From positions 1 through 61,740 of IMG/VR virus record IMGVR_UViG_3300029258_001356: a DNA stretch of 61,740 bases. One strand, written 5' to 3'. Positions 6,526-53,204 of this stretch are shown in pieces; within the stretch, counting starts at the first letter, position 1, and each line of letters opens with the position of its first letter. A model generated the notes under the pieces. That model saw only the letters and a program-made list of their open reading frames with translations, was not told the DNA's origin and searched no databases. A program made the position numbers and the translations under genes. The stretch is from a virus. Its lineage: Duplodnaviria > Caudoviricetes.

Positions 6526-6536
6526 AGATAAGGAGC

Positions 6537-7196: not shown

Positions 7197-7205
7197 GAGG
7201 ACAAA

Positions 7206-7544: not shown

Positions 7545-7545
7545 A

Positions 7546-7923: not shown

Positions 7924-7925
7924 AA

Positions 7926-8633: not shown

Positions 8634-8634
8634 G

Positions 8635-9276
8635 ATGTTTGCAATCAGAGGAATAGAGTTAGAAGAAGTAATACCCGAGCTTGCTAAGAGAATGAACAAG
8701 CTTGGGGTTATTACACTCTATGACGTCTTCATTGAATGCGGGGTATCTCCCGACTTCAAGAAGATAAAGTGGATGGAGAAGTATTTCCACTTCTTTCTAA
8801 AACATCCAAAGGGTAAGTATAACCACATATGGAAGCATTACTATACCCCTATCATAAACGAACTTAGCGAGAAGCATATAACCGAACTTGTTAAGAAGAC
8901 TCTTATGTTTACCAACACAGGAGGTAAGAAATGTATAGGAATGATTATCTTCGAAGAAAAGACATTGAAAGTATTCTTTCGTTCATCATTCCTAATGCCA
9001 ACAATGTACTATGACCTCATTGTTCTCGATAGGTTTATCAAGTACATATACCCCTGGAGAAAAGTTAATAAAGTAGTATTGTATTTTAATAAAATAAAGA
9101 TCAACACTATCTATGGGCTACCGTTCACACAGCTGCTCATGAGAATAGAGAAACTGTCCCCTTACATGAGAAACCTCAGACGCAGATATCTTAAGAAGGT
9201 AGACCAATATGCACAAAGCAACAACTTTCAAAGATCAAGAGTCTATCGAAGATTCAGAGAAGAATTTGGAAAATGA
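8635..9276 (+). CDS. Degenerate second thymidylate-synthase-fold protein
   Basis: KKCIGMIIF...LKVFFRSS...MYYDL parallels PC...YQF...MRSS...PYD of the upstream gene. Confidence 0.5.
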   Translation: MFAIRGIELEEVIPELAKRMNKLGVITLYDVFIECGVSPDFKKIKWMEKYFHFFLKHPKGKYNHIWKHYYTPIINELSEKHITELVKKTLMFTNTGGKKCIGMIIFEEKTLKVFFRSSFLMPTMYYDLIVLDRFIKYIYPWRKVNKVVLYFNKIKINTIYGLPFTQLLMRIEKLSPYMRNLRRRYLKKVDQYAQSNNFQRSRVYRRFREEFGK

Positions 9277-12883: not shown

Positions 12884-12961
12884 TGAAGAAAGACAAATTT
12901 GTAGTTAAAGTGAAAGAGAAGACACCAGGTATGAATAGACATCTGGAGGAGTGGATACCAA

Positions 12962-13303
12962 ATGGAAAAGAAAAAAAGAAGACTGAAGAATCCTAAGCGA
13001 AAGGGAATAGTATTTGAAAGAAAGACTAGAAAAGTATTAGAAGCACAGGGATTCTTTTGTGTAAGACAAGCAGCGTCTATCTTTCCAGACATAGTAGCAA
13101 TAGCCCCAAAGACTGGTGAAGTTCATTTTATAGAATGCAAGGTTAAGGCTAAATATTTTTCAAGAAGAGAAAGAGAATACCTTCTTGAGATGCAGAAAAA
13201 ATACAACGTCAAACCATTTCTTGCATATAAGAAAAGAGAAGGAAGATATGTCAATGTTCAGATTGACCCAGTTGTTCCATTAGTAAAAGAAAAAGAAAAA
13301 TGA
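12962..13303 (+). CDS. hjc: Archaeal-type Holliday junction resolvase
   Basis: KGIVFER...GFFCVRQAAS..PDIVA...IECK PD-(D/E)xK signature. Confidence 0.88.
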   Translation: MEKKKRRLKNPKRKGIVFERKTRKVLEAQGFFCVRQAASIFPDIVAIAPKTGEVHFIECKVKAKYFSRREREYLLEMQKKYNVKPFLAYKKREGRYVNVQIDPVVPLVKEKEK

Positions 13304-14286
13304 AAAAAATATTGTTAGTTGATGCCGATTCAAAGATACCGAACATAGCATTGATGAAGTTATCGACATATTGGAAGAAGCATGGATATAAAATAGACTT
13401 CATGAAGCTAGGTTTATCCTTTTACAAAGATACCAAGAATCCAATAATTGTTGATGCTAAAGGATACAGGAAAGTCTTTGTCTCTATTGTATTTGACAAC
13501 AACCGCAATTCTGTAAAAGTAATTAATGCTAAGGGTCAAGTTAGATTTGGTGGAGCAGGGTATAATATCAAGTCCAAACTCCCAAAACGAATTGATGCAA
13601 TAGCCGAAGACTATTCTCTATATCCAGACAATGACATATCCTATGGATTCATAACAAGAGGATGTGTTAAGAATTGTGACTTCTGTATAGTAAGACAGAA
13701 AGAAGGACGATTGAAAAGATATAGAAAGATTGAAGACATACAGAAGCATGAGAAAGTATATTTCTTAGATAATAATATACTTGCCTATTCAAAATGTAAT
13801 GACGTCTTGAGAGAACTGATTGATAAGAAAATCAAATGCCGGTTCATACAAGGATTAGACATTGCGTTTATAGATAATGAGAAAGCTAAATTACTTTCTG
13901 AGTTAAGATATGACATGTCTTACATCTTTGCTTTTGATAATATCAAAGACCTAAAGATGATAAAAAGGAAGCTAAAGATTCTGAGAAAATATCTTGGAGA
14001 TTGGAAAATAAAATTCTTCTTATACTGTCATCCGAGAATGAGTCTCAAGAAAGATATAATGTTTAGAATTAATTTCTGTAGAGAAAATAAAATTCTTCCT
14101 TATATCATGAGAGACAAAGCTTGTTACAAATCTGAGTATGACTTTTTCTTTAAAGACATAGCAGCTTGGTGCAATCAACCATCTCTATTCAAGAAGAAGT
14201 CATTTCTACAATTTCTTAAGATGAGACATAAGAATCCGAAAAGAATAAAATATTCAAAAGGAGTTTATGATGAAATACAGAATTAA
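13300..14286 (+). CDS. Radical SAM protein
   Basis: TRGCVKNCDFC (CxxxCxxC), FLDNN, QGLD; N-terminal LVDADSKIPNIALMK. Confidence 0.85.
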   Translation: MKKILLVDADSKIPNIALMKLSTYWKKHGYKIDFMKLGLSFYKDTKNPIIVDAKGYRKVFVSIVFDNNRNSVKVINAKGQVRFGGAGYNIKSKLPKRIDAIAEDYSLYPDNDISYGFITRGCVKNCDFCIVRQKEGRLKRYRKIEDIQKHEKVYFLDNNILAYSKCNDVLRELIDKKIKCRFIQGLDIAFIDNEKAKLLSELRYDMSYIFAFDNIKDLKMIKRKLKILRKYLGDWKIKFFLYCHPRMSLKKDIMFRINFCRENKILPYIMRDKACYKSEYDFFFKDIAAWCNQPSLFKKKSFLQFLKMRHKNPKRIKYSKGVYDEIQN

Positions 14287-15661
14287 GTTGCTCAATGGTA
14301 ATCTATGTCAATTAGATTCCCCCAGAGATACGTCTATCATGGATGCTTTAGACAATGGTCTTTCCTATAAGAAGAAGAATGCCTTCTTCATGCAGAGAGC
14401 CATTAAAAGAAGGTTTGGTAGATCCTGGGATGGTAGGGTTAAGCTCTTTAGTAAGGCTACTAGATGCTTTCAAGTTGGAATGTTAGCAAGGGCAATAGAT
14501 TCCATAAAAGAATATGATTCAAAGGCAGATATAGAAATACAGCGATATGGAAATAGGGGTCTGTCCGCAGATATAGATTTACCAACTAAACTATTAACTA
14601 AAACACTTAGACCCTATCAAAAGAATGCCGTCGACACTGCACTCAAAGAAAAAATTGGAATACTTGAAATAGCAACCGGAGGAGGAAAGACTTTGATAGC
14701 CTCCGAGATAATACGAAAAATAGGACTATCTACTCTCTTTATTGTCGATAGAAAAGAACTTCTTACACAGACAAGGAAAGTCTTTAAAAAAGAACTTGGA
14801 GTTCGTGTAGGAATAATCGGAGATGGAGAGATGAAGATTGAACCTATAACTGTTGCAACAATACAAACGTTGGATAAGAAAAAGAAGGCATTGAAACAAT
14901 ATCTTCAACGAGTTAATGTATTAATATTAGATGAGACACACAAGGCAGCAGCAAAGACATACTCAAAGATTTGTAAGATGTGCAAAAGCACTAGATATCG
15001 GATAGGGCTAACAGGAACAGCATTTAGAGACGATGGAGATGATATGCTTATCGAGGCATGTGTTGGACAGGTAATATACCGGTTAACTAATAGGGATTTA
15101 ACTGAAATGGAGTATCTTGAGGAGCCGACAATAACCTTCCATACCATAGACTTTATGGAAGACTTAGTTATGACATATCCAGAAGACTATGAGATGAATG
15201 TTGTTTTAAACCTAAAGAGAAACTTATATGTAACAGCAATAGCCAATGAGAATAAGAAGAAGAAGATTTTGATTCTCACCAAGAGAATTGAACATGCTAA
15301 AATCCTAAAGAAAAGTATTGTAAGAAAAAATGTTGAAATCATTACAGGGAAAGTTAATAAGACAGATAGAAGATTGATTATGGAGAAGTTCCTTAAGAAG
15401 AAAGACTTTGTGCTTATAGGAACCTTGTCCATATTCTCTGAAGGAATTGACATTCCCGATCTCGATGTACTAATCAATGCGTCGGGGAATGCAGGAGAGG
15501 TGAAGACAATTCAAGCCTTAGGAAGGCTCCTGAGGAAGGATGATAAGAAGGTAAGTTGCTTCTATCATGACTTCGTAGACTCAGGACCTTTCATAAGAAA
15601 ACATTCAGACTGGAGGATAAAAGCCTTCGAGAATCTGGGGTACAAAGTCAGTGTAAAATAA
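14267..15661 (+). CDS. Superfamily 2 helicase (XPB/UvsW-like)
   Basis: LRPYQ, ATGGGKT, DETH, GLTGT, EGIDIP, QALGRLLR. Confidence 0.92.
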   Translation: MMKYRIKLLNGNLCQLDSPRDTSIMDALDNGLSYKKKNAFFMQRAIKRRFGRSWDGRVKLFSKATRCFQVGMLARAIDSIKEYDSKADIEIQRYGNRGLSADIDLPTKLLTKTLRPYQKNAVDTALKEKIGILEIATGGGKTLIASEIIRKIGLSTLFIVDRKELLTQTRKVFKKELGVRVGIIGDGEMKIEPITVATIQTLDKKKKALKQYLQRVNVLILDETHKAAAKTYSKICKMCKSTRYRIGLTGTAFRDDGDDMLIEACVGQVIYRLTNRDLTEMEYLEEPTITFHTIDFMEDLVMTYPEDYEMNVVLNLKRNLYVTAIANENKKKKILILTKRIEHAKILKKSIVRKNVEIITGKVNKTDRRLIMEKFLKKKDFVLIGTLSIFSEGIDIPDLDVLINASGNAGEVKTIQALGRLLRKDDKKVSCFYHDFVDSGPFIRKHSDWRIKAFENLGYKVSVK

Positions 15662-15663
15662 GC

Positions 15664-15705
15664 CCAAAATGGAGCCATTTTGGCAAAAGGACAGCAAAAT
15701 GGCTC
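15664..15705. repeat. Nested inverted repeats upstream of a promoter
   Basis: CCAAAATGG-ag-CCATTTTGG (15664-15683) and GAGCCATTTTG/CAAAATGGCTC (15672-15682, 15695-15705). Confidence 0.7.
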
Positions 15706-15764
15706 TAGAATGGCAAATAGGCTCAGATTTAAGCTTATTAACCTATCTACTCCAGTAGACATAT

Positions 15765-15774
15765 GTATATAAAC
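15765..15774 (+). promoter_or_regulatory. TATA-type promoter for the small early gene cluster
   Basis: GTATATAAAC, same core as the other promoters. Confidence 0.6.
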
Positions 15775-15849
15775 CCTTTTTACATATTATTTACATACAA
15801 TGGGCATCCGGTAAACCAACACCGGACGCGACGATCGGAGGTGACTAAC

Positions 15850-16263
15850 ATCGCAGTAGAAGTGAAGAAGGGCGGACCTTGCCCACTCTCCTACACGGAG
15901 TTCAAGTGTGAAGGGAAGCTCAAATACGACGAAAAGACCAAGACCCTTTATTGCCCCAAATGTTTTTGGGAAGAAGGGCAGGAGAACAAAATGGGAAAGA
16001 AAGGCGGAAGCCCAAGTAAGTACGACGATGACCTCAAATCAGAAGTCATCAAAAAAGTACAAGCGGGAAAGACACCGGAGGAAGTCTCTGAAGAATACAA
16101 GGGACATCCAAACCCCAAAGCCATCAAGCGATGGTGCAAGAAGAAGGGCGTAAAGATACCGGAGTCTAAGAAGACGAAGAAGAAGTCGAAGAAGGACGAG
16201 AAGAAGAAGCCCAAGAGAGACAAGAAGAAGGGTAAGAAGAAAGGAAAGAAAGGGAAGAAGTAA
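15850..16263 (+). CDS. Zn-ribbon + HTH + Lys-rich tail protein (internal start at 15991 likely)
   Basis: CP...C...CPKC, then SKYDDDLK...HTH...KKxKK. GGAGGTGA precedes ATC at 15850 and AGGAG precedes ATG at 15991. Confidence 0.6.
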   Translation: MAVEVKKGGPCPLSYTEFKCEGKLKYDEKTKTLYCPKCFWEEGQENKMGKKGGSPSKYDDDLKSEVIKKVQAGKTPEEVSEEYKGHPNPKAIKRWCKKKGVKIPESKKTKKKSKKDEKKKPKRDKKKGKKKGKKGKK

Positions 16264-16421
16264 TCTTCCCTCGTCTTAGCCACGGAGGACGAAAAAATGG
16301 GACGCATTGGACGAATAAGTAAATACGACGTCGAAATTGCAACAGACGATGAGCTTGCACTTGCTGTAACTATGATCAACATCGAAATAAGCAAGAGAGA
16401 AGCGAAAGAGGAGGGCTGAAC

Positions 16422-16613
16422 ATGAAATGTTGTATATGCGGAGATGAGATTCAGCCAAAAGGACCTAAGGGAACTTGGACATCTGGAAACAATGCCATGC
16501 CAGTAAAAAAAGGAAGGTGTTGCGACAATTGTGACGAGAGGATTGTCATACCAGAAAGAATAAGGAGAAGGAAGGAGGAACAGAAGAATGGGACAGTTCA
16601 CAATAATTCCTAA
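16422..16613 (+). CDS. Small Zn-finger protein
   Basis: CCICG...CCDNC; GGAGG RBS. Confidence 0.65.
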   Translation: MKCCICGDEIQPKGPKGTWTSGNNAMPVKKGRCCDNCDERIVIPERIRRRKEEQKNGTVHNNS

Positions 16614-16751
16614 CCCTTACAAAGACGTACCACTAGCAGACGTATCATGCGCTGGTTGTGGAAAGCCGATTCATAACACCGATGATGTATATATGATACC
16701 GGGTGCAGGAACCTATCATCAAAGGTGCAAACCACATTAGGAGGAACGAAA

Positions 16752-17036
16752 ATGGGAGACGAGAAGAAAGAGAAGAAAGAAAAAAAGAAGAAGTCCAAGG
16801 AGAAGAGATACAAGGTCACAATCCTTCCCTCTGAACTTGAGACTATAGGCGTAACCGAGAAAGACCCAAAGAACAGCGTAGTAAGTAACGCAGCAAGGGA
16901 AAAGCTGGGGCTACCAGAGCTTGGAAGACCAGTCTCGGAAACTAAGAGCGAAGTTCTTAAGGAACTAGGTCTTGGTGCAAAAGCATCACAGACAGAAATG
17001 ATGTCAGCGATGTTAAAGAAATTGAAGGGGAACTAA
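16752..17036 (+). CDS. Hypothetical protein, Lys-rich N-terminus
   Basis: AGGAGG RBS before ATG (MGDEKKEKK). Confidence 0.6.
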   Translation: MGDEKKEKKEKKKKSKEKRYKVTILPSELETIGVTEKDPKNSVVSNAAREKLGLPELGRPVSETKSEVLKELGLGAKASQTEMMSAMLKKLKGN

Positions 17037-17064
17037 TCCCCTTCCCTTTCTTGCCACGGAGGAT

Positions 17065-17427
17065 ATGATGAAAAACAAGAACAAGGAAACAGTCAAGTTA
17101 GCCGAAGAGTTCTTAAAGGTTAAAGCATTGGCTGAGAAGCTGCAAGATCCTAGAGTCACAGGAGTCAACCTGAAGAAATGGGGACTCAATCCTAATTCAC
17201 CACTAGTAGACAAATTCATAGAACTCCATAAAGACAAGTACGACCTTGTCGGAGATTTCATAAACAAGACGACACCAGAGGAGACAGATCGAAGAAGATT
17301 AAAATACATCAAGAGAAAACTCATAGCAATTGACAAAGAGATAGAGTCAAAGAAAAATGAAAGATTTGAAATTCAAAAACGAGCACACGAGCTAGAAGAA
17401 AAAATAGGAAACAATGAAAACTCATAA
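17065..17427 (+). CDS. Hypothetical coiled-coil protein
   Basis: GGAGG RBS, C-terminal heptads. Confidence 0.6.
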   Translation: MMKNKNKETVKLAEEFLKVKALAEKLQDPRVTGVNLKKWGLNPNSPLVDKFIELHKDKYDLVGDFINKTTPEETDRRRLKYIKRKLIAIDKEIESKKNERFEIQKRAHELEEKIGNNENS

Positions 17428-17761
17428 GAAGCACATAGAAAAAGTATTCCTACCAGCTATCAAACAAGTCATATATGATATTTACAAAGAGAACAAACTC
17501 CTAGACAAAATTAAGAAGGACTGGGAGCCATACAAACTTCCATATCAACGAGGGACCAGGAGAGAAGAGTATATAGATAAGGCAGCAACAGACTTTGACC
17601 TATTCCCTTTCGACATAGAACAAGGACTTAATGCTTTTCAACAAAAGAGGCTTGAGATGAAGAACAGACGGAGGTTGAAAAATGCCAAAAGGAAAGAAAA
17701 ACGTAAAGCCAATAAAAAGACGCAAAGGAAGACCAACGAACGGACAGAAGATAATGTCTGA
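17414..17761 (+). CDS. Hypothetical protein
   Basis: Overlap-coupled ORF on the coding strand. Confidence 0.55.
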   Translation: MKTHKKHIEKVFLPAIKQVIYDIYKENKLLDKIKKDWEPYKLPYQRGTRREEYIDKAATDFDLFPFDIEQGLNAFQQKRLEMKNRRRLKNAKRKEKRKANKKTQRKTNERTEDNV

Positions 17762-17890
17762 TCTGAGGGATCTAAAGAAGAAGAGAATAGCCGAAGCGAC
17801 AAAAGAAATTGCAGTGATAGCAAAGAAATACGAACTGACAGAGATTGAGCTAAGTGATATGGTTATAGATATAGCCGCGGAGTCTGCACA

Positions 17891-18094
17891 ATGAATGACG
17901 GAAAGGATAAGAAGAAAGTTGTCTTCAAGAATACAAACCCAGACAGATATAAAGTAGCTTTGACACAGACGGCAAAAGGATTTGTCTACATTGACAAAGC
18001 AGAAGCTTGTGGGTCAGACCTCAAAGAACTTGAAGACCAACTTGAAAAGGTTGTAGACATTGCAATCAAAGTCTGCAACAAACATAACGCATAA
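17891..18094 (+). CDS. Hypothetical protein
   Basis: ATGA coupling with the upstream ORF. Confidence 0.55.
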   Translation: MNDGKDKKKVVFKNTNPDRYKVALTQTAKGFVYIDKAEACGSDLKELEDQLEKVVDIAIKVCNKHNA

Positions 18095-18100
18095 ACGAGA

Positions 18101-18113
18101 AAAGTATATAAAT
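18101..18113 (+). promoter_or_regulatory. BRE/TATA promoter driving the ncRNA cluster
   Basis: AAAGTATATAAAT about 28 nt upstream of the first structured RNA. Confidence 0.7.
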
Positions 18114-18141
18114 CTTTTTTCTTTTCTTTTTATATACAATA

Positions 18142-18206
18142 AGGAGAAAGGTTTTTGAGGGAAGAGGCGAGGATTCGTTCCTCAACCCGACTCTCGGAAC
18201 CCTCCT
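18142..18206 (+). ncRNA. Structured small RNA (multi-stem)
   Basis: Closing stems AGGAG/CTCCT and GGTT/AACC; inner stems TTGAGG/CCTCAA and CCGA/TCGG. Confidence 0.45.
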
Positions 18207-18211
18207 GATTT

Positions 18212-18307
18212 GGAACTGTAGTGCAGTGGTAGCATTGGTGACGCTATTGGTGAAGTCTAACTTCACTCCTAGTATTCCAGGCTTGGGTTCGATTCCCAAC
18301 GGTTCCT
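18212..18307 (+). ncRNA. tRNA-like RNA A with elongated or intron-like anticodon domain; no encoded CCA
   Basis: Acceptor GGAACTG/CGGTTCC, D arm GTGC-AGTGGTA-GCAT, T arm TTGGG-TTCGATT-CCCAA; ~47 nt between D and T arms capped by GTGAA-GTCTAAC-TTCAC. Confidence 0.75.
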
Positions 18308-18310
18308 GCA

Positions 18311-18412
18311 CGGAGACGATACAGCGTTAAGATGGACACACCGTGGCGCCGTCAGATTCGTTGACCATATGGCTTGCAGAAGTCGATGCGGGGTTGAGTC
18401 CCCACGTCTCCG
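18311..18412 (+). ncRNA. tRNA-like RNA B (acceptor plus T-arm mimic)
   Basis: CGGAGACG/CGTCTCCG stem stacked on GGGG-TTGAGT-CCCC; non-tRNA interior. Confidence 0.6.
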
Positions 18413-18434
18413 GGATTATGATTATGAGGATAAG

Positions 18435-18716
18435 ATGATAGACAAGAAGATAATAGACGAGATGCCCCCAACTCGTAGGATAACACTTCCTAAGAGTAAA
18501 CTTAAGGGCTTCAAACTTAAGAAGAATGATAGACTGCTTAAGTTCTATATCCAAGGTGAGAATGAAGACTGGATTGGAAAAGTCTATGATTACAAAAGAC
18601 AGTGTGTCATACGTGTTCCTGAGAAGTTCTGTAAGATTAGAAAAAAGATAACTCTTTGGTTCACAGATGACATGGCTGTCAATCTGTACATCTTAAAGGA
18701 GGTAAAAAGAAGATGA
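18435..18716 (+). CDS. Hypothetical protein, possibly AbrB/SpoVT-like
   Basis: GAGGA RBS before MIDKK; RRITLPKS...LKKND and VIRVPEK strand motifs. Confidence 0.5.
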   Translation: MIDKKIIDEMPPTRRITLPKSKLKGFKLKKNDRLLKFYIQGENEDWIGKVYDYKRQCVIRVPEKFCKIRKKITLWFTDDMAVNLYILKEVKRR

Positions 18717-19168
18717 GTAAGAAAAACACAGAAGTGAAGCTGTCTTTCGATAGTAAGCAAAACATTATCTTAAGACAGATTATAACGACGCAGGAATTCA
18801 CACCAGACGAATTCCTAGCTGGCATAGCAAATGTCGGCAACCAGATAGAGGGACAGAAGAAACAACTTGAAGCGCAAGATAGAGCTAAGGAAAAGATAAA
18901 TGATACCATCGTGGAGATAGAAAAGGAACAGAAGATGATGATGGAGCTCAAGGAACAGCACTTCAAGGAGAGGGAGATACCTGCTCCACAAACTGAGGAA
19001 GATATGAATAAGTTGCAAGCAAAGAAGTTTGCGGAAGAGATAAAGCTTCAGGTACTCGAAAGTCTCAAGGATGATTCCAAAGAAGAGGCTAAACCAGAAG
19101 AAGCTAAAGAAGAAGCAAAGCCAGAGGAGAAGAAATCGGATGAACCCGAACAAGCTAACAAAGAGTGA
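18713..19168 (+). CDS. Hypothetical coiled-coil protein
   Basis: GGAGGT RBS, ATGA coupling. Confidence 0.65.
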   Translation: MSKKNTEVKLSFDSKQNIILRQIITTQEFTPDEFLAGIANVGNQIEGQKKQLEAQDRAKEKINDTIVEIEKEQKMMMELKEQHFKEREIPAPQTEEDMNKLQAKKFAEEIKLQVLESLKDDSKEEAKPEEAKEEAKPEEKKSDEPEQANKE

Positions 19169-19451
19169 GTTCGCATACCTCAGGCAAATCCCATGTGATT
19201 TGGGAAAGCTTGCAGACTTCGGAGAAAGCGGAAAGGCGGACAACGTCCGCCCCCTTTCCCGTTGTCCTAATTATGAGGAATGCTTCAGAGGCAAAGAACA
19301 TCCTCTTCAGTGCCCGCTCAAAAAGAAACTAAAGGACATGATACTCATTAAATGCGCCGAGTGCGGAAATGATTATGAAAAGTTCTTAGAGGGTTGTCCT
19401 AATTGCGAAATGGGAAATCCTCTTCTGAGTGGAATAATAGTAGAGGATTAA
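19140..19451 (+). CDS. Cys-rich Zn-binding protein
   Basis: CPNYEEC...CP...CAECG...CPNC. Confidence 0.6.
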   Translation: MNPNKLTKSEFAYLRQIPCDLGKLADFGESGKADNVRPLSRCPNYEECFRGKEHPLQCPLKKKLKDMILIKCAECGNDYEKFLEGCPNCEMGNPLLSGIIVED

Positions 19452-19452
19452 A

Positions 19453-20001
19453 ATGGCATGGGGAGACCTTCCAGCAAAAGTTAGAAAGAAGAAATTCTTC
19501 TGTACTGTTTGCAATAATGTCCGAAAGAAAGCAGGACGAAAGAAGGTTACTCTTGGTGATAAAGAAGTCTATGCTTGCACCAACTGTCTTAAGAATAAGA
19601 AAGCCGAGACAGCAGTTGTCATGACAGAAGTTAGGGAAAAGAAAGTCTTCAGTACGGAAGACATAATTAAGCTCCAAGGAAAAATAAACAATGTCGGAAG
19701 AGAGGGTAATACAGACAGGAAGCGGAATCACTTTGGGAGACGTAACTCCTCAAGAGTTCATGGATCTGGTATTCGACGTAAACCGTTCGGACAGAGACAA
19801 GATAGACGATCTGGAGAAAAAACTTTCAAAGGACCAGCGCAAAAGAGGAAAGATAACCAAGAAGCACAAAGAGAAGATAGAAGACCTCATAAAAATAGTG
19901 AGGGAAAAGCAAGAAGACATTGGTCGCCTCAGAAGCAAAACAGTAGAGTCCGAAAGAAAGGCAAAGGATTTGGAAATCCAAAACAGGGATTTAAAGATTG
20001 A
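19453..20001 (+). CDS. Zn-finger protein with long basic tail overlapping the next gene
   Basis: FCTVC...ACTNC; GAGGA RBS. Confidence 0.55.
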   Translation: MAWGDLPAKVRKKKFFCTVCNNVRKKAGRKKVTLGDKEVYACTNCLKNKKAETAVVMTEVREKKVFSTEDIIKLQGKINNVGREGNTDRKRNHFGRRNSSRVHGSGIRRKPFGQRQDRRSGEKTFKGPAQKRKDNQEAQREDRRPHKNSEGKARRHWSPQKQNSRVRKKGKGFGNPKQGFKD

Positions 20002-20416
20002 CAATTCCCGTCTGAAAGAAAAAATAAAAGGTCTGTACAAGGACCTGAAGATAAGAGACCAGGAACTATTGAGACTCCGTCAATCGAAAGTCAAATATAT
20101 CGAGACTGATACTTCGGAATATCTGAAGAAAATCAAAGACCTTGAGTTTTCAGTAGAGAATCTTAATCAGACGATATCTGATAAGATTCATGAGAAGATG
20201 AAGCTCACTTCTACGATTTCAGATATGAAAAAAGAAATAGATTCATATAGAAAATCAGTATCAAGGCTGGAAGCCGAGAGAGCCCGTATGCGGGACCAAC
20301 ATAAAGGGGATATGAATACCCAAAAAGATAAAATAGAGGACCTCAGCGAGCAGCTAAACGCTGCTAGGCGGGGAATATGGCCATCACTTAAAGAGTGGCT
20401 TATACGCCATCTCTGA
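19691..20416 (+). CDS. Long coiled-coil protein
   Basis: Continuous heptad pattern over ~190 aa; amphipathic C-terminus. Confidence 0.7.
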   Translation: MSEERVIQTGSGITLGDVTPQEFMDLVFDVNRSDRDKIDDLEKKLSKDQRKRGKITKKHKEKIEDLIKIVREKQEDIGRLRSKTVESERKAKDLEIQNRDLKIDNSRLKEKIKGLYKDLKIRDQELLRLRQSKVKYIETDTSEYLKKIKDLEFSVENLNQTISDKIHEKMKLTSTISDMKKEIDSYRKSVSRLEAERARMRDQHKGDMNTQKDKIEDLSEQLNAARRGIWPSLKEWLIRHL

Positions 20417-20435
20417 GGGCTTAGGAGGAACGCAA

Positions 20436-20771
20436 ATGACTAAATATAAGGTGAAGGTGAAGCTGTGGGCAAACAGCATAATCCGGACAGAAGAACGAGA
20501 CCCAGTGAGCAAGAGGATAACGCACCCACATGCAATTCTACCAGCTAGGAAAGTGGTCGAACGGCTAGTTGGAATGACAGGAGCTGCACAGCCAGCCGAA
20601 GTATATAAGGCACAAAATCTAGCTCAGATCAATGAGGTAGAGAATAAAAACTATGACCCTAGGATGTCATTCGATGAGTTTATCGAAGTCCTCCATAAGG
20701 AAGGAGTCATTGAGATACTAGAAAGAATCGAAGAAGAAGAAAATAAAGAAGAAGCCAAGCCGAAGGCTTGA
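20436..20771 (+). CDS. Hypothetical protein (last gene of + arm)
   Basis: AGGAGG RBS. Confidence 0.65.
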   Translation: MTKYKVKVKLWANSIIRTEERDPVSKRITHPHAILPARKVVERLVGMTGAAQPAEVYKAQNLAQINEVENKNYDPRMSFDEFIEVLHKEGVIEILERIEEEENKEEAKPKA

Positions 20772-20870
20772 CGACTTCCTGATAGGAGAGGTGCTCTAGA
20801 CATAGCCTAGAACTCCCAATAATAATACCCTTTCGTGGTTTATTAATCTTCTCCAAGCTTAGAGAGTGTC

Positions 20871-21158
20871 TTAATATCCGCGAAAGAATGCTTCTACGCT
20901 CTGTTTGTTACGGAATATCTCCTGTATCTCATTCTTAATCTTATCTGCTCCAGCGAACACTCCTGCTGCAAGTGCGACTTTGAACGAAACGTCTACTCCG
21001 AAATACTGTGCGACAAAAACACAAACACCAGCGATGACTCCTACCCTCAAGATCCTCTCCATGGTTCTATACCAAGGAAATTCTCTTAGCTTGAGTCTCT
21101 TATCTCTGACCCAAATATATCCCGCGGCTATCTTCTGTGGTATGGTTTTCCAATTCAT
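20871..21158 (-). CDS. Holin-like membrane protein
   Basis: Two hydrophobic segments; end of late operon. Confidence 0.5.
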   Translation of the reverse strand: MNWKTIPQKIAAGYIWVRDKRLKLREFPWYRTMERILRVGVIAGVCVFVAQYFGVDVSFKVALAAGVFAGADKIKNEIQEIFRNKQSVEAFFRGY

Positions 21159-21391
21159 ATTATACCTCCTACTTTTAATATAATCGTAATGGCAATGCCA
21201 AGAACCCCACTAGCACTTATAACTCCTACTGCACCCTTGAATCTGTTTATGAATGTCTCATGCTTTTGAACTTTTCCATTGATGGCTTTGAAATGGTCAT
21301 CAGCTCCTTCTTTCCATTTGTCATCATATTCGACATAGTCCTTGAACTCTTGTCTAAATGCGGCTAGTGTGGCTGTTTCTTTTTTATTCAT
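21155..21391 (-). CDS. Small coiled-coil plus C-terminal TM protein (lysis-associated, XhlA-like layout)
   Basis: INGKVQKHE followed by a hydrophobic C-terminus; ATGA coupling. Confidence 0.55.
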   Translation of the reverse strand: MNKKETATLAAFRQEFKDYVEYDDKWKEGADDHFKAINGKVQKHETFINRFKGAVGVISASGVLGIAITIILKVGGII

Positions 21392-22242
21392 CGTCTTGGT
21401 ATTATCCTCACATTCTTTAGGTTCTTTTTAAAACTGTTCTCGGCTACACCTGTTTCAAATGTATGCCAAGCCCCATAGTCATTGAATGAGAACCAAACAT
21501 CCTTGATTCCAATTTTATCACTAGAATCATTTGACTTAGGCAATTCATTAAAGGTTCTTGGAATCATAGATATTGGTGTTGTTGAATTCATATGTCTCCA
21601 AGTAACAAGATCGTCAGATAGTGGATAAAATGTCGAATGACCAAAGTCTTCCCATGTCAAACCACAAACTGCCCTAAGTCTCCATGATGGAACTCCGGCT
21701 GCTATCATATGAGATATTAGTGAATGAGTATAATCTTCACAGTCTCCTTTCCTCTTAGCCATCATCTCGTATGGGAAAAGCCAAAGCTCTGGTATCTTAA
21801 ATGTCTGTTCGTCATAAGCATATGAAAAGTACTTCTGCTGATGCCATCTGTATATCTTCAACATATCATCGTCACACTTAAGAGGATCTTTGACGAGAAG
21901 GTTATAGTTCCTTACATTATTCTGTATTACCCTATCCCTTGGGGTAATAAAGAGTCTTACATCCATCTCTAACATCTCTCTTGGTGATAATGGATAAGGT
22001 CTTCCTCTATAGAAGATGTCTGCCATAGGCTTTCTGTTGTCCCAGTATATCTTCCTTGGATGATTGTTAACAATCTCTTTATTACGCAATGCCTTCAATT
22101 CGGAATTGAGTTCATCTATCTGAGTAAGAGCACTAGAATATCTTTCTTGATAATACTCTGATGTCTTTCTACATTCTCCAATCTGTGCACTGAATCCATA
22201 TGCTCGATCGAACATATCTTTGATAAATTCTTTAAAGCTCAT
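21388..22242 (-). CDS. Transglutaminase-like cysteine protease (putative envelope-degrading lysin)
   Basis: KGDCEDY, FGHST, HMNST give a Cys-His-Asn triad; N-terminal coiled coil; next to membrane proteins. Confidence 0.7.
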   Translation of the reverse strand: MSFKEFIKDMFDRAYGFSAQIGECRKTSEYYQERYSSALTQIDELNSELKALRNKEIVNNHPRKIYWDNRKPMADIFYRGRPYPLSPREMLEMDVRLFITPRDRVIQNNVRNYNLLVKDPLKCDDDMLKIYRWHQQKYFSYAYDEQTFKIPELWLFPYEMMAKRKGDCEDYTHSLISHMIAAGVPSWRLRAVCGLTWEDFGHSTFYPLSDDLVTWRHMNSTTPISMIPRTFNELPKSNDSSDKIGIKDVWFSFNDYGAWHTFETGVAENSFKKNLKNVRIIPRR

Positions 22243-22829
22243 ACAATATACACCTCATAATTTAGTCTCCCTCCGCTGGAGCCAGTCTCTTTTAGTTCAA
22301 TTAGTTGTTCTTCTGTTGTATTATTAATGTAAGTGGTAATGTCCAGTAGACCAGTATCCCATTCTGTTGTTCCGTCACTTCCCCAATCCGAACCTGTCCA
22401 TTCCGGCATTGTGTTTGGGTCTCCTATGTCTGTGGTTCGATCCGTGCCATTTATCCATATCTCTGTATTCTTTGGAACAGCAGTTGTAGCTATTCCATCT
22501 GCAGGATGACTGTGTCCTCCACCACTTCCAGAAGGACAGAATCCTGTACCAATAGAAACTAGAAGGACTGGATGAGTATGATTTCCTACACTTGGATGAC
22601 CATGTGTAATGTTTCCAGGTCTTCCAAATACTAATCCTCTAACTCTTAAATAAACATGCCTATAGTTATTGAAGTCTGCTGGAGTATATGTTCTAATGTC
22701 CATTATGTGAAAGTAGATTCTCTCGCTTGCTGACCCACTATCACCAACTAACCTTATCCCATTAACACATAGAGGACGATTGTTCATGAACTTCGCATAT
22801 ACTGTTTCATTATCTGCAAGCAATGCCAT
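22239..22829 (-). CDS. Tail-tip/spike paralogue 3 (HxH motifs)
   Basis: KFMNNRPL, THGH, NHTH, GHSH, WDTGLLDIT. Confidence 0.65.
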   Translation of the reverse strand: MALLADNETVYAKFMNNRPLCVNGIRLVGDSGSASERIYFHIMDIRTYTPADFNNYRHVYLRVRGLVFGRPGNITHGHPSVGNHTHPVLLVSIGTGFCPSGSGGGHSHPADGIATTAVPKNTEIWINGTDRTTDIGDPNTMPEWTGSDWGSDGTTEWDTGLLDITTYINNTTEEQLIELKETGSSGGRLNYEVYIV

Positions 22830-23419
22830 TATGTTATGTAAAGACAGTATTGAACTCTACCGCCTTCTCCTCCTGTTTCTTTGATTGTGATATAATGATC
22901 TTGCACTGTTGGGTCTACATAATCTGTGATGTCTAGTCTTCCTGTGCTCCATTCATTAGTCCCGTCGTCTCCCCATCCGTCTACTGTATCATAGTGAGTC
23001 TTACTATTAGGATTGCCTATGTCTAATGTTCTTTCTGTACCATCAATCCATATCTCAACATGCTTAGGAACTACCGTAGGATCTAAACCAGCATTACCGT
23101 GACCGTGTGACGGATTAGTTCCAGAGGTTCCCGCTGCATACTCTGATGGAGTACAAGGGTGAGTATGATTTCCTACACTTGGGTGCACGTGAGATTCTTC
23201 GGGGTATCCTCCACCTGCGTACCCATACAAGAATAAGAGAACCTGTCTAAAGCTGACATAGAAACTTCCATCCCATAACGCACCAGTTTCCATTATGTGA
23301 AAGTAGAAGGTATGTTCGGAGGTTCCTGTCCCATCCATAACTACCTCATCTGATATACTGAGTGGCCTATTATTCATGAACTTTGAGCCATATGTTTCGT
23401 TGGTTGTTATGAGTGCCAT
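22829..23419 (-). CDS. Tail-tip/spike paralogue 2 (start revised to 23419)
   Basis: MALITTNETYGSKFMNNRPL aligns with its neighbours; TAATG coupling. Confidence 0.65.
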   Translation of the reverse strand: MALITTNETYGSKFMNNRPLSISDEVVMDGTGTSEHTFYFHIMETGALWDGSFYVSFRQVLLFLYGYAGGGYPEESHVHPSVGNHTHPCTPSEYAAGTSGTNPSHGHGNAGLDPTVVPKHVEIWIDGTERTLDIGNPNSKTHYDTVDGWGDDGTNEWSTGRLDITDYVDPTVQDHYITIKETGGEGGRVQYCLYIT

Positions 23420-24000
23420 TATACCAAATACAAGTTGAACAACAACTTGCCTCCATTTCCTCCAGTCTCCTGGAATTCTATATAGTGATCTTGAACTGTC
23501 AAGTCTACATAAGCTGTAATGTCTAGTCTGCCAGTATCCCATTCTACTCCTGTGTTATTACCCCAGTCATTTCCTGTTGAGTCCCACATAGTTGCTGGCT
23601 TAGTATTAGGATTTCCTATTGCTGCTGTTCGATCCGTACCATCTATGATAATCTTTACAGACTGTGGAATAACACTTGTAGCCAATCCTTGTGAACCATG
23701 CCCATGCCCTCCAGCTGACCCAGATGAGTGAGGTCCGCTTAGTCCTGGATTATGTGTGTGACCTCCTGTATTTGATATGGCGTGTTGCCTTACAGCTATC
23801 TCTCCTAATTGTTTACCATACACCCAAAGGTAGACGGCTCTAATAGTATTACTTGCTCCTGTCTCCATCAGTGTGAAATGATAGATGTTTGAATTAGGAG
23901 GAGAAGTAGCAGAGAAGTTACAGACCCCATTAACACTCATGGGCCTATTGTTCAGATACTTCGCGTACGTGTATTCCCCATATCTTAGTAGTTCTGCCAT
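23419..24000 (-). CDS. Tail-tip/spike paralogue 1
   Basis: KYLNNRPM, GHTH, GHGH, WDTGRLDIT. Confidence 0.65.
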   Translation of the reverse strand: MAELLRYGEYTYAKYLNNRPMSVNGVCNFSATSPPNSNIYHFTLMETGASNTIRAVYLWVYGKQLGEIAVRQHAISNTGGHTHNPGLSGPHSSGSAGGHGHGSQGLATSVIPQSVKIIIDGTDRTAAIGNPNTKPATMWDSTGNDWGNNTGVEWDTGRLDITAYVDLTVQDHYIEFQETGGNGGKLLFNLYLV

Positions 24001-51872: not shown

Positions 51873-53204
51873 CTAATGATTTGTCGTATTCGTTCCTATG
51901 GAATCACCAGAACCTAGTGGAAGGATTGCGTCTACATATACGTCACCTTCTTCATCCGGATCTCCTATTCTCATCTTTCTTATCGGTAGAGGGTCTGCGT
52001 CTACATGCGGAGCTAACCTGTTATCATTCTCTACGCCTTCATCTACCTTCTCTCCTTGACTTACCATTTCGTTGTATGCTCCCAACGGATCTGGCATCTT
52101 CAAAGGAGCAGGCGCCATCTCACCTATATCATCTCTTCCTATTCTTAGTTTCCTAGGCATTTCTTCGCCTGGGATATGATGTCTATGCTTATATGCTATC
52201 TCATTGTAATTGGGAGATGTAACCCTATGCACTTCTCTTCCATCTTCCTTCCATTGCTCCCTCTTAACTCCATTGTCTACCTCTGATGAATAATCTTGCA
52301 TGTCTGCAACCTCCATTGCGTTTTTGAATCGTGCTAAAGGACCTAAGCCATAATGATCAAGAAGCGGTGTCCCTCCGAAGTCATTGAGTCTCTTGACCAG
52401 CTTCACCATCTTCTTGTAGTTGTCTCCAATTTGGGCGTATTGCAAAAGGTTTTCTCTGTGTGTTAAGATAGCCCTTTGCAACATAGGGTGTATGTCCGCC
52501 TTCATCTGTGCCTTGAATCTTAAGGCTCTTAAGATGATAGATGGATCACGGGCTAAAACCACTTCTGGGTCTAGCGGAGTTCTAATTACGTTTTCTCGTG
52601 CATCCTTGATACCTAATCCCGTAGGATCGTAATACTTCCCTGATAGAGGTTCTTTGAATACTGCATTGAATGTAAAATCCCTAGAATAAGCGTCTTCATT
52701 GATTGGTGTTATGGGTATCTCTTGTCTATCCATCTCTTCATGTACCCAATGAAGAATTTGCTTCAGACCTCTGAACTCTACATTGATGTCATCTATAACT
52801 AGGTGTGCTACACCACTCTTAGAACCATGGTCTGGATTAGGAAGATTCTCGTCTCTGGCTACCAGATACGCTAAGGCAATCGAGTTACCTCTTTCCAGCG
52901 TAGTAAGGTCAGCATCAGAAGACTCGTCGAATGGGATATTGGCAAGTTCATTCCTGACAATACCACCAGAGACGAGAAGCGTCATATCATTCTTTTGTGC
53001 TAGGATACCTATCTCCCTCAGAAGATTATCCATTTCCGCTTTTGTTGAACCTGTTTCAATCATTTTCAATTTTCTTAACATCTTGAAGGTCTTTGTCGAA
53101 GGATGAAATAATCTCCACCTTATCTCCTTCCTTAACTTCCCAGTATCCTCGATCGACATTATACTGTGCCTTCTTCCATTGGCCTTTGTGTAGAATGTTA
53201 GCAT
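51873..53204 (-). CDS. Class II tRNA nucleotidyltransferase / poly(A) polymerase family protein with altered template motif
   Basis: SGGIVRN...DADLT (motif A), EDAYSRDFTFNA (B), YYDPTG.G..D (C), RDPSIILRALRF (D/E; canonical EDxxRxxRxxRF). Confidence 0.85.
   Translation of the reverse strand: MLTFYTKANGRRHSIMSIEDTGKLRKEIRWRLFHPSTKTFKMLRKLKMIETGSTKAEMDNLLREIGILAQKNDMTLLVSGGIVRNELANIPFDESSDADLTTLERGNSIALAYLVARDENLPNPDHGSKSGVAHLVIDDINVEFRGLKQILHWVHEEMDRQEIPITPINEDAYSRDFTFNAVFKEPLSGKYYDPTGLGIKDARENVIRTPLDPEVVLARDPSIILRALRFKAQMKADIHPMLQRAILTHRENLLQYAQIGDNYKKMVKLVKRLNDFGGTPLLDHYGLGPLARFKNAMEVADMQDYSSEVDNGVKREQWKEDGREVHRVTSPNYNEIAYKHRHHIPGEEMPRKLRIGRDDIGEMAPAPLKMPDPLGAYNEMVSQGEKVDEGVENDNRLAPHVDADPLPIRKMRIGDPDEEGDVYVDAILPLGSGDSIGTNTTNH

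What the first reader, a model, noticed from the sequence alone, without database searches (positions are those of the whole stretch)
18101..18412. Second ncRNA cluster with its own TATA promoter: three structured RNAs, two of them tRNA mimics
Seen: the conserved promoter at 18101 is followed by a multi-stem RNA (18142-18206), tRNA-like A (18212-18307) and tRNA-like B (18311-18412; 8-bp CGGAGACG/CGTCTCCG stem on a GGGG-TTGAGT-CCCC arm with a ~70-nt non-tRNA interior). The layout matches the 58-kb array (a non-tRNA stem RNA, then two tRNA mimics) without obvious sequence identity. Inference: together with the 58-kb array and the atypical nucleotidyltransferase, this may be an undescribed tRNA-mimic and tailing system. 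All four mimics keep the acceptor+T half, vary the anticodon half and lack CCA.
Basis: partly seen in the sequence, partly recalled or inferred. Interest (0 to 1): 0.82.

Follow-up and report, generated by a model that had tools for sequence, protein, structure and literature searches.

The report
Viral tRNA gene plus tRNA-like RNAs
An intergenic stretch of a probable archaeal tailed virus holds a promoter, a structured leader, one real tRNA-type gene whose anticodon arm is replaced by a long hairpin, and a weaker tRNA-like unit; this unusual variant of virus-encoded tRNA genes may not decode.

Summary

- **Promoter:** The 12-mer AAAGTATATAAA at 18101 is one of 5 exact copies, all intergenic. 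It looks like an archaeal BRE/TATA box.
- **Unit A (18212-18307):** This is a tRNA homologue, not just a mimic. It scores 41.5 bits on Rfam tRNA (threshold 29), with intact acceptor, D and T arms. About 25 extra nucleotides turn the anticodon arm into a 44-nt irregular hairpin (z -3.09). It has no strict bulge-helix-bulge splice motif. The only canonical anticodon-loop reading gives CUA.
- **Unit B (18311-18412):** It has the stated 8-bp stem and GGGG/CCCC arm. Its interior folds no better than shuffles (z -0.15), and no Rfam family matches it.
- **Unit 1:** This is a stable leader hairpin.
- **Relatives:** One distant relative carries the same pair, an anticodon-disrupted tRNA followed by a long acceptor/T-arm unit. 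Another carries tRNAs with canonical archaeal introns.
- **Enzyme link:** The "undescribed tailing system" idea is weakened. The cultured haloarchaeal virus HGTV-1 already combines tRNA genes with a class II nucleotidyltransferase. Two complete relatives have tRNA-type genes (one of them the tRNA-like pair) but no such enzyme.

No RNA data exist. My best reading is a co-transcribed tRNA/tRNA-like cluster cut out by RNase P and RNase Z, with A probably non-decoding.

The parts
18097..18112 (+). BRE/TATA-like promoter (GAGA + AAAGTATATAAA)
   Evidence: 5 exact copies of the 12-mer, all intergenic; enrichment over shuffles; shared flanks and spacing to downstream genes
18136..18211 (+). Predicted 5' leader with a stable hairpin (18142-18206). 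It also holds AAGGAG followed by a 17-codon TTG ORF (18155-18208).
   Evidence: z -2.54, 1 of 200 shuffles; ORF read. The transcription start is inferred from promoter spacing, not shown.
18212..18307 (+). Unit A: tRNA-derived gene with a 7-bp acceptor stem, canonical D arm (GUGC-AGUGGUA-GCAU), canonical T arm (UUGGG-UUCGAUU-CCCAA) and discriminator U. No CCA is encoded.
   Evidence: Rfam RF00005 41.5 bits, above the gathering score of 29; ARAGORN with introns allowed also calls it
18236..18279 (+). Remodelled anticodon arm of A: a 44-nt irregular hairpin (3 bp, 4x3 loop, 4 bp, 2x2 loop, 8 bp, CUA triloop). It contains the direct repeat ATTGGTGA twice.
   Evidence: z -3.09, 2 of 200 shuffles; repeat read; enumeration of spliced forms
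18311..18412 (+). Unit B: tRNA-like minihelix (8-bp closing stem + GGGG-UUGAGU-CCCC) around a 71-nt interior, starting 3 nt after A
   Evidence: interior z -0.15; pattern hit in the chance control; no Rfam hit
18435..18716 (+). First downstream ORF (93 aa, GAGG before the ATG), 22 nt after B, with no promoter motif in between. It is probably co-transcribed.
   Evidence: no Pfam family. There is no T5+ run on the + strand between 18157 and 21379.
21380..21385 (+). First oligo-T (T6) downstream of the cluster: candidate end of the transcription unit
51873..53204 (-). Divergent class II (PolyA_pol head) nucleotidyltransferase and possible 3'-tailing enzyme. GGIVRN, DxD and SRDFTFNA are present; motif D reads RDPSI instead of EDxxR; there is no HD or RNA-binding domain hit.
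   Evidence: Pfam 46.6 bits; alignment A2; no NCBIfam equivalog reached; nearest homologues <=33% identity
58095..58470 (-). Second noncoding array: a 117-nt four-way junction, a 76-nt cloverleaf-shaped RNA, a 77-nt unit with near-canonical T loop UGCAAGU, and a further hairpin pair
   Evidence: z -5.95, -3.18, -1.58, -2.56; no Rfam hit at E<=10
12962..13303 (+). Hjc-type Holliday junction resolvase (marker bearing on the host domain)
   Evidence: Pfam PF01870 41.5 bits against a cut-off of 21.1; NCBIfam Hjc 27.4 bits, below its cut-off of 70

Best explanation
The region is the 5' part of a transcription unit of a probable archaeal tailed virus. A BRE/TATA-type promoter at 18097-18112 starts an RNA at about 18136. 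That RNA carries, in order, a stable leader hairpin, a tRNA-derived gene (A), a tRNA-like minihelix unit (B) three nucleotides later, and then the ORFs from 18435 onward.

Inferred steps: host RNase P and tRNase Z recognise the acceptor/T-arm stacks of A and B and cut at their borders. This releases A and B as small stable RNAs and also trims the 5' end of the downstream mRNA. CCA is not encoded, so a 3' tail would be added afterwards, either by the host enzyme or by the virus's own divergent class II nucleotidyltransferase.

A keeps everything that shape-reading tRNA enzymes need: acceptor stem, D loop with GG, and a T loop. Its anticodon arm, however, is a 44-nt hairpin formed by mutually complementary 5' and 3' insertions, with no strict splice motif. 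I therefore judge, at about 60:40, that A is a non-decoding tRNA-shaped RNA (a decoy, processing signal or protein-binding scaffold) rather than a pre-tRNA that is spliced into a decoder.

What is shown: the sequence features, the tRNA homology of A, the fold statistics, and a similar pair in a distant relative. What is inferred: transcription, processing, tailing and function.
For: - Promoter: 12-mer enriched and confined to intergenic sites, with constant spacing to downstream genes.
- Archaeal host: Hjc resolvase domain. Relatives found through the helicase carry tRNAs with short introns at 37/38. In 4 of the 6 L114 tRNA units scanned, the top scanner hit is a 5-bp anticodon stem, a 4-bp helix and 3-nt bulges. 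The same scanner recovers the perfect motif in the HGTV-1 tRNA-Ala intron.
- A is a tRNA homologue: 41.5 bits. Its arm is more stable than 198 of 200 shuffles.
- Minihelix units are concentrated in the two noncoding clusters: 4 of 14 hits.
- Relative G007 has a tRNA (45.6 bits) with 20 nt where 11 are expected in the anticodon region. Ten nt later comes a 146-nt unit with an 8-bp acceptor stem and a canonical T arm. G002 has a 118-nt unit of the same kind.
- Under a single-intron model, no decoder form exists for G007's tRNA or for B, requiring U33, a purine at 37, and a stem of >=4/5 pairs (G007 tRNA) or 5/5 pairs (B).
- Operon layout: no promoter motif and no T5+ run lies between B and the ORFs, up to 21380. 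In the 300-nt fold the three units form independent domains.
Against: - No RNA data: 4 of the 5 listed runs hold the stretch, all on record as DNA and identical in sequence. Transcription, processing and tailing are therefore untested.
- No close relative exists. The next helicase is 43% identical and PolB has no relative in IMG/VR by close-match search, so there is no covariation test for any unit.
- B's interior is no more structured than shuffles and its T-like loop has 6 nt. B could be a decayed tRNA or a chance stem: the background rate gives about 0.03 expected hits in this spacer.
- A T5 run at 18152-18156 inside the leader could terminate an archaeal polymerase early.
- A does contain one hairpin that can be drawn as a 5-bp stem with a 7-nt loop having U33 and A37, so a decoder cannot be excluded.
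- Host domain is not proven. One helicase relative sits in a contig labelled Pseudomonadota. The class II enzyme type is the bacterial one: it appears in 10 of 10 bacterial and 0 of 4 archaeal control genomes.
Confidence: 0.5

Rival explanations
1. A is an ordinary decoding tRNA gene interrupted by one or two archaeal introns that the host endonuclease removes through a relaxed (hBH/HBh') motif. B is a second, more heavily disrupted tRNA gene. The cluster then simply supplies tRNAs, as in other tRNA-carrying viruses.
For: - Relatives and HGTV-1 carry intron-bearing tRNAs.
- A's excess of 25 nt is intron-sized.
- Deleting 13 nt at the D-stem/anticodon-stem junction leaves a 5-bp stem GUGAA/UUCAC with loop GUCUAAC (U33, A37, anticodon CUA). 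Position 25/26 there is a documented non-canonical intron site, according to passages of PMC4090602 read.
- Two alternative BHB-like registers share one 3' site and would give the loops GUGAAGC (GAA) or GUGACGC (GAC), both with U33 and G37.
- ARAGORN at low stringency draws B with loop CUUGCAG (UGC) and a correct 3' half.
Against: - A has no strict BHB. Its 5' 'bulge' is base-paired in the stable helix, or the motif clashes with the D stem.
- The CUA solution needs a 16-nt variable region on a class I-type D arm and has G32-C38.
- The canonical-length product (71 nt) has only 3 of 5 anticodon-stem pairs. This is my own reading.
- TAG ends 23 of 100 greedy ORFs and no recoding is seen, so a suppressor is not needed.
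- B has no 5-bp stem solution with U33 and a purine at 37 and no Rfam tRNA hit at E<=10.
- By contrast, the introns in L114 and HGTV-1 have clear canonical motifs.
Confidence: 0.25
2. The units are decaying relics of a former tRNA gene array with no present function. A is a tRNA pseudogene inactivated by a 12-nt duplication plus other insertions, and B is a far-decayed tRNA.
For: - A contains a direct repeat ATTGGTGA-N4-ATTGGTGA that looks like an old tandem duplication.
- B's interior is unstructured and its T loop is degenerate.
- The relatives differ widely in which tRNAs they keep.
Against: - A's acceptor, D and T stems have no mismatch and the conserved loop residues are kept. Decay should hit them too.
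- The two insertions in A pair with each other to give an arm more stable than 198 of 200 shuffles.
- The 58-kb units are very strongly structured.
- An independent relative has the same pair of unit types.
- The units lie directly behind a conserved promoter.
Confidence: 0.15
3. One reading: A, B and the 58-kb units form a dedicated tRNA-mimic system whose obligate partner is the virus's atypical class II nucleotidyltransferase, which adds a special 3' tail.
For: - All units lack CCA.
- The enzyme is present and has an altered nucleotide-selecting motif (RDPSI for EDxxR) and no HD domain.
- G005, the other relative with a PF01743 enzyme, also carries odd tRNA-like units.
Against: - G007 (rated complete) has the tRNA-like pair, and G006 (rated complete) has a tRNA, yet neither has PF01743.
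- The enzymes of G005 and HGTV-1 are canonical (EDxxR, HD) and sit beside ordinary tRNAs. The tRNA-enzyme pairing is therefore a known general theme.
- Absence of encoded CCA is usual for archaeal tRNA genes (recalled, not tested here).
Confidence: 0.1

Closest known systems
tRNA gene set plus tRNA nucleotidyltransferase of Halogranum tailed virus 1 (HGTV-1, KC292026)
   Same: It is an archaeal tailed virus whose terminase is the best-scoring isolate match to the window's terminase (25% identity). It encodes tRNA genes, at least one with an intron (34 Rfam hits; 103-nt tRNA-Ala with a perfect hBHBh' motif). It also encodes a PF01743 class II enzyme (66.8 bits). A passage of PMC8651126 names the CCA-adding enzyme, Rnl2 ligases and RtcB.
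   Different: The HGTV-1 intron examined has a canonical splice motif. Its enzyme has EDxxR and an HD domain. In the window there is a single Rfam-detectable tRNA with a remodelled anticodon arm and no strict BHB, several non-tRNA cloverleaf or minihelix RNAs, and a divergent enzyme. No RNA ligase was found among the roughly 55 ORFs scanned with Pfam; about half of the ORFs were not scanned.
Archaeal intron-containing and otherwise disrupted pre-tRNAs (BHB, hBH/HBh' motifs; non-canonical sites such as 25/26 and 45/46)
   Same: The insertion is confined to the anticodon-arm region, it is intron-sized, and the host is probably archaeal. The insertion point is compatible with known non-canonical sites (passages of PMC4090602).
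   Different: The defining 4-bp helix flanked by two 3-nt bulges is not present in a usable register in A or B. No product with a standard anticodon arm of class I geometry exists.
tRNA-like elements cut out of longer transcripts by RNase P and RNase Z and then CCA-tailed (mascRNA/MALAT1 type, Rfam RF01684)
   Same: These are tRNA-shaped units embedded in a longer transcript with a non-decoding anticodon region. The 3' two-thirds of A match RF01684 at 31 bits.
   Different: The score is below the gathering score of 42.5, and those are vertebrate nuclear RNAs with no evolutionary link. The processing of A and B is inferred only.
Bacterial and phage Y RNA-like RNAs (YrlA, Rfam RF02553), tRNA mimics with T and D arms
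   Same: They are non-decoding RNAs that keep the tRNA elbow. Relative G005 has a T arm - closed acceptor stem - D arm module that matches RF02553 at 35.7 bits.
   Different: The score is below the gathering score of 69. Nothing in the window matches RF02553. No Ro/TROVE domain was seen among the ORFs scanned. A has normal, unpermuted tRNA topology.
Stable non-tRNA RNAs inside the phage T4 tRNA cluster (species 1 and 2 RNAs) - recalled from memory, not checked in any call
   Same: They are small structured RNAs co-transcribed with viral tRNAs and matured by the tRNA-processing enzymes.
   Different: That is a bacterial system with no known sequence relation. I did not retrieve a paper or sequence for it.

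Membership tests
tRNA (Rfam RF00005) - unit A | Full-length match to the covariance model above the gathering score | tested here: met
   41.5 bits against 29, model positions 1-71, E 2.4e-7; repeated
tRNA (Rfam RF00005) - unit A | 5-bp anticodon stem with a 7-nt loop (U33, purine 37) at the standard distance from the D and T arms | tested here: not met
   40 nt stand where 15 are expected. The only 5/5-pair solutions need a 13-nt deletion and a 16-nt variable region, or two deletions.
tRNA (Rfam RF00005) - unit B | Any match to the model | tested here: not met
   No RF00005 hit at E<=10 in 17900-18600 apart from A. ARAGORN draws it only at 70% stringency, with 3/5 stem pairs.
Archaeal intron-containing pre-tRNA | Bulge-helix-bulge: a 4-bp helix flanked by two 3-nt bulges, next to the anticodon stem or another exon helix | tested here: not met
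   My scanner finds the motif in 4 L114 tRNAs and in HGTV-1 tRNA-Ala. In A it gives only registers whose 5' bulge is paired or that clash with the D stem. In B it gives none that leaves a tRNA.
Archaeal intron-containing pre-tRNA | Relaxed hBH / HBh' splice sites accepted by some endonucleases | tested here: inconclusive
   A 4-bp helix UAGC/GCUA flanks a possible 13-nt intron, but neither outer helix is present (my reading). The host endonuclease type is unknown.
Archaeal intron-containing pre-tRNA | Spliced product observed | not testable with these tools
   No RNA run holds the sequence.
mascRNA-type tRNA-like element (RF01684) | Match above the gathering score | tested here: not met
   31 bits against 42.5
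Y RNA-like YrlA (RF02553) | Match to the model, with a permuted T arm / D arm module | tested here: not met
   No hit in the window. There is only a sub-threshold hit in relative G005.
Class II CCA-adding enzyme (for the linked nucleotidyltransferase) | Head-domain motifs A-E, including EDxxR in motif D | tested here: not met
   GGIVRN, DxD and SRDFTFNA are present, but motif D reads RDPSI. No NCBIfam equivalog cut-off is reached. The motif names and roles are recalled.

The most novel reading that the evidence does not exclude
This virus, and at least one distant relative, make a set of tRNA-shaped RNAs that are not decoders. They have an intact elbow, but the anticodon arm is replaced by a closed hairpin. 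Beside them lie cloverleaf and minihelix RNAs. All would be cut out by the host's tRNA-processing enzymes and given a non-standard 3' tail by the virus's own altered class II nucleotidyltransferase. They would act as decoys or sponges for host tRNA-binding factors, such as defence nucleases, modification enzymes or synthetases, or as punctuation marks that set mRNA ends. That would be a class of archaeal-virus noncoding RNA not described so far.
Probability: 0.2. Interest if true: 0.8.

Novelty: new variant of a known kind. Interest (0 to 1): 0.5.

Why it matters
Virus-encoded tRNAs are usually read as codon-usage helpers. A tRNA-derived RNA that keeps every feature needed for processing but has lost a usable anticodon arm, and that recurs beside a longer tRNA-like unit in a distant relative, points to a non-decoding use of the tRNA shape in archaeal viruses. 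No such RNAs turned up in my literature searches (none of the 12 papers listed held 'archaeal virus' together with 'tRNA-like').

It also flags a practical problem. Default tRNA finders returned nothing for this genome, so such genes are under-counted in viral metagenomes.

If A is spliced after all, it would extend the known range of splice motifs, or reveal a suppressor-type tRNA in an archaeal virus.

Tried and rejected
- **Close relatives for covariation:** none found. The PolB close-match scan of IMG/VR and the exact T-arm pattern scan were both empty. Blastn of 17000-20000 against phage records gave no match. The nearest nucleotidyltransferase homologue is <=33% identical.
- **Expression:** no RNA holder is listed for the stretch. 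The four DNA runs laid are contigs identical to the window over 12000-24000, so they give no variants.
- **Stop-codon recoding, to explain a CUA anticodon:** rejected. ORF totals give no case for one reassigned stop. In-frame ORF pairs across TAG (5) are no more frequent than across TGA (5) or TAA (6). TAG ends 23 of 100 greedy ORFs.
- **Antisense targets of the A and B interiors and the leader within the genome:** only 11-13-nt matches at chance level.
- **Shared motifs:** CATATGG is not enriched (9 against 6.9 expected). GATTCGTT occurs only twice in the window, both in this cluster, but a shared 8-mer between two short RNAs has roughly a 0.08 chance by my estimate.
- **Box C/D, K-turn and tmRNA-like readings of B:** considered by eye and dropped, because no CUGA box, no tandem G.A pairs and no ARAGORN tmRNA call were found.
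- **Host assignment:** the genome-contig scan gave only a Pseudomonadota-labelled contig and a 27% hit.
- **Deaminase at 56096-56545:** checked as a possible tRNA deaminase. It is dCMP-deaminase-like (ComEB 134 bits; TadA 30 bits).
- **Two-intron and single-intron enumeration:** for G007's long unit it gave only weak Leu/Ser-like solutions without a splice motif.
Full report
**What the window is.** The window is a complete IMG/VR virus record of 61,740 bp with 144-bp direct terminal repeats and 40% G+C. It is a tailed virus. Pfam finds a terminase, a portal, a Mu-F-like head protein and a tail tube. It also finds a UDG-PolB fusion, a helicase, thymidylate synthase, a dUTPase, a dCMP-deaminase-like protein, a PolyA_pol-head nucleotidyltransferase and an Hjc-type resolvase. 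The best-scoring cultured match for the terminase is the haloarchaeal virus HGTV-1, at only 25% identity.

**Host domain.** Several lines point to an archaeal host.
- The Hjc domain scores 41.5 bits against a cut-off of 21.1.
- The promoter motif looks like a BRE/TATA box.
- A distant relative carries tRNA genes with short introns at position 37/38 that have the archaeal splice motif (see below).

This is not proven. One helicase relative lies in a contig labelled Pseudomonadota. The nucleotidyltransferase is of the class found in 10 of 10 bacterial and 0 of 4 archaeal control genomes.

**The promoter.** AAAGTATATAAA at 18101-18112 is one of five exact copies (1593, 3107, 5612 and 18101 on +; 1115 on -), and a sixth at 59326 has one mismatch. 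All are intergenic. At <=2 mismatches there are 37 hits against 12.6 expected, and none of 100 shuffles reaches 37. The copies share GAGA upstream. At 3107 and 5612 they are followed by a GGAGG(T) ribosome-binding site and an ATG 41-46 nt after the motif. By that spacing, transcription from the 18101 copy should start near 18136; this is an inference. On the + strand the next run of five or more T after 18156 is at 21380, at the end of the + strand gene block. No further promoter motif lies between unit B and the ORF at 18435. The RNA cluster therefore looks like the 5' part of an operon of roughly 3.2 kb rather than a free-standing gene.

**Unit 1.** The stretch 18136-18211 folds into one long imperfect hairpin (18142-18206). 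On the predicted leader z is -2.54, with 1 of 200 shuffles as stable. It begins with AAGGAG where the other promoter copies have their ribosome-binding site. It also contains a 17-codon TTG ORF at 18155-18208. I cannot decide between a leader hairpin, a small RNA and a leader peptide. A T5 run at 18152-18156 could also act as an early terminator.

**Unit A is a tRNA homologue.**
- Default ARAGORN and Rfam's gathering mode found no tRNA in the window.
- With permissive filters, Rfam's tRNA model matches 18212-18307 end to end at 41.5 bits (gathering score 29, E 2.4e-7) (confirmed).
- The acceptor stem (7 bp, one G-U), the D arm (GUGC-AGUGGUA-GCAU) and the T arm (UUGGG-UUCGAUU-CCCAA) are canonical.
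- In place of the 15 nt between the first anticodon-stem pair there are 40 nt.
- CCA is not encoded. The discriminator U is followed by GCA and then by unit B.

**Can A be spliced into a decoder?** I wrote a scanner for the archaeal motif: exon helix, 4-bp helix, 3-nt bulges, and cuts after the second bulge nucleotide. The definition was checked against passages of PMC4090602.

The scanner recovers known cases:
- the perfect motif of the 31-nt intron in HGTV-1 tRNA-Ala;
- canonical 37/38 introns in four tRNAs of relative L114: Glu-UUC 14 nt, Pro-UGG 16 nt, Arg-UCG 34 nt and Gln-UUG 15 nt.

In A it finds no strict motif. With the inner helix made optional, it finds three overlapping registers at the tip of the arm and one that uses the first copy of a direct repeat (ATTGGTGA occurs twice, 4 nt apart). 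Two of these would give loops with U33 and G37: GUGAAGC and GUGACGC. However, the 5' 'bulge' is base-paired in the stable helix in the first case, and the exon helix overlaps the D stem in the second.

Exhaustive single deletions leave only one arm with 5/5 stem pairs, U33 and a purine at 37. That arm is GUGAA-GUCUAAC-UUCAC (anticodon CUA), and it requires a 13-nt deletion at the D/anticodon junction and a 16-nt variable region. Of the 77 double-deletion solutions, all 40 that were printed use the same loop.

A suppressor is not called for, because TAG ends 23 of 100 greedy ORFs and no recoding signal is seen.

Thermodynamically, the 5' and 3' insertions pair with each other. This extends the arm into a 44-nt hairpin (18236-18279) that is more stable than 198 of 200 shuffles (z -3.09). 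I read this as a selected, elongated arm and put about 60% on A being a non-decoding RNA.

**Unit B.**
- The 8-bp stem and the GGGG-UUGAGU-CCCC hairpin are as described.
- B starts 3 nt after A's discriminator, the tight packing typical of tRNA operons.
- No Rfam family matches at E<=10.
- The T-like loop has 6 nt.
- The interior folds no better than shuffles (z -0.15, 86 of 200).
- No single-intron solution with a 5/5 anticodon stem, U33 and a purine at 37 exists.
- As a chance control, I scanned both strands of the window for a 7-bp stem with an adjacent GC-rich 4-5-bp hairpin. This gave 14 hits. Ten are scattered, and four are A, B and two units of the 58-kb array. The background rate predicts about 0.03 hits in this 341-nt spacer.

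So B is more than chance as an acceptor/T-arm minihelix, but nothing more can be said about it.

**The 58-kb array.** On the minus strand, 58470-58095 holds four units:
- a 117-nt four-way junction (z -5.95);
- a 76-nt cloverleaf-shaped RNA (z -3.18);
- a 77-nt unit whose T loop UGCAAGU is one change from canonical (z -1.58);
- a further hairpin pair (z -2.56).

None matches Rfam.

**Relatives.** There is no close relative, so no covariation test is possible. An alignment of helicase homologues at about 40% identity retrieved 27 IMG/VR loci, 80 metagenome loci and 2 genome loci. Six of the seven nearest virus records were fetched whole, and four of those six also share tail genes with the window at about 30% identity.
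- Rfam tRNA hits occur in 5 of 9 virus records searched.
- G007 has a tRNA (45.6 bits) with 20 nt where 11 are expected in the anticodon region. It has no decoder solution with >=4/5 stem pairs. Ten nt downstream is a 146-nt unit with an 8-bp acceptor stem and a canonical T arm (z -2.37). This is the same pair of unit types as A and B, at a different genome position.
- G002 has a 118-nt unit of the same kind next to its helicase (z -2.73).
- L114 has at least 15 Rfam tRNAs in 5.2 kb, several with canonical introns.
- G005 has a T arm - closed acceptor stem - D arm module that resembles Y RNA-like RNAs or a permuted tRNA, at a sub-threshold 35.7 bits.

**The nucleotidyltransferase link.**
- PF01743 is present in the window and in G005. 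It is absent from G007 and G006 (both rated 100% complete) and from G002 (37% complete), so 2 of 5 records carry it.
- HGTV-1 has 34 Rfam tRNA hits and a PF01743 protein with canonical GGxVRD, DxD, RRD, EDxxR and an HD motif. A passage of PMC8651126 lists its CCA-adding enzyme, Rnl2 ligases and RtcB.
- Class II enzymes also occur in tRNA-rich bacteriophages.

The pairing of tRNA genes with such an enzyme in a virus is therefore known. What is unusual here is the enzyme itself. It is <=33% identical to anything in 5.8 billion proteins, reaches no NCBIfam equivalog, has no HD or RNA-binding domain hit, and reads RDPSI where EDxxR should be. The role of that motif in nucleotide choice is recalled, not tested.

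**Verdict.** It is wrong to call A a mere mimic, and it is not supported on a dedicated, undescribed mimic-plus-tailing system.

My best reading (confidence 0.5) is a co-transcribed tRNA/tRNA-like cluster matured by the host's tRNA-processing enzymes, with A probably non-decoding. Without RNA data or close relatives, the function stays inferred.

Noticed in passing
L114:1-5200 (metagenome contig, helicase relative): An array of at least 15 Rfam tRNAs lies upstream of the helicase. Four have canonical 37/38 introns of 14-34 nt, and in three of those four the central helix reads CUUN/GAAG. A fifth tRNA has a 43-nt insertion and no clean motif. A tRNA-Phe carries an extra small arm in the variable region. 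Default ARAGORN missed or misnamed several (Gln-UUG was called Ser or 'Stop').
   Followed up: partly
L032:1534-1640 (virus record G005, 116 kb): A T arm - acceptor stem closed by UUCG - D arm module sits inside a longer stem. It gives a sub-threshold match to the Y RNA-like family RF02553 (35.7 against 69 bits). It could be a Y RNA-like RNA or a circularly permuted tRNA. The same record has a canonical PF01743 enzyme with an HD domain (L135:1426-2778).
   Followed up: partly
window 51873-53204 (-): This class II nucleotidyltransferase has motif D reading RDPSI instead of EDxxR and motif A reading GGIVRN. It has no HD or PolyA_pol RNA-binding domain, and no homologue above 33% identity.
   Followed up: partly
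window 58095-58470 (-): These are very strongly structured noncoding RNAs (z down to -5.95), including a 76-nt cloverleaf that is not a tRNA by Rfam. They follow a small basic ORF (about 58727-58500).
   Followed up: partly
window 18097 (runs X3 and X4): In two runs, a contig joins the sequence found upstream of the promoter copy at 3107 to position 18097. This is either an assembly-graph effect of the repeated promoter or a rearranged variant that recombined at promoter copies.
   Followed up: no
window 18155-18208 (+): A 17-codon TTG ORF (LREEARIRSSTRLSEPS) lies inside the leader hairpin, 8 nt after AAGGAG. It may be chance.
   Followed up: no
window 18172-18179 and 18355-18362 (+): GATTCGTT occurs only twice in the whole window, once in the leader hairpin loop and once in a hairpin of unit B.
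   Followed up: partly
window 6537-7196 / 7206-7544 (+) and 60771-60379 / 60369-60115 (-): These are two pairs of adjacent genes in the same frame, separated by TAG. This would be of interest only if unit A were an amber suppressor, and the count is no higher than for TGA or TAA.
   Followed up: partly
window 5965-9276, 56096-56545: A full pyrimidine-nucleotide module is present: thymidylate kinase-like protein, dUTPase, thymidylate synthase, dCMP deaminase-like protein, and UDG fused to PolB.
   Followed up: no
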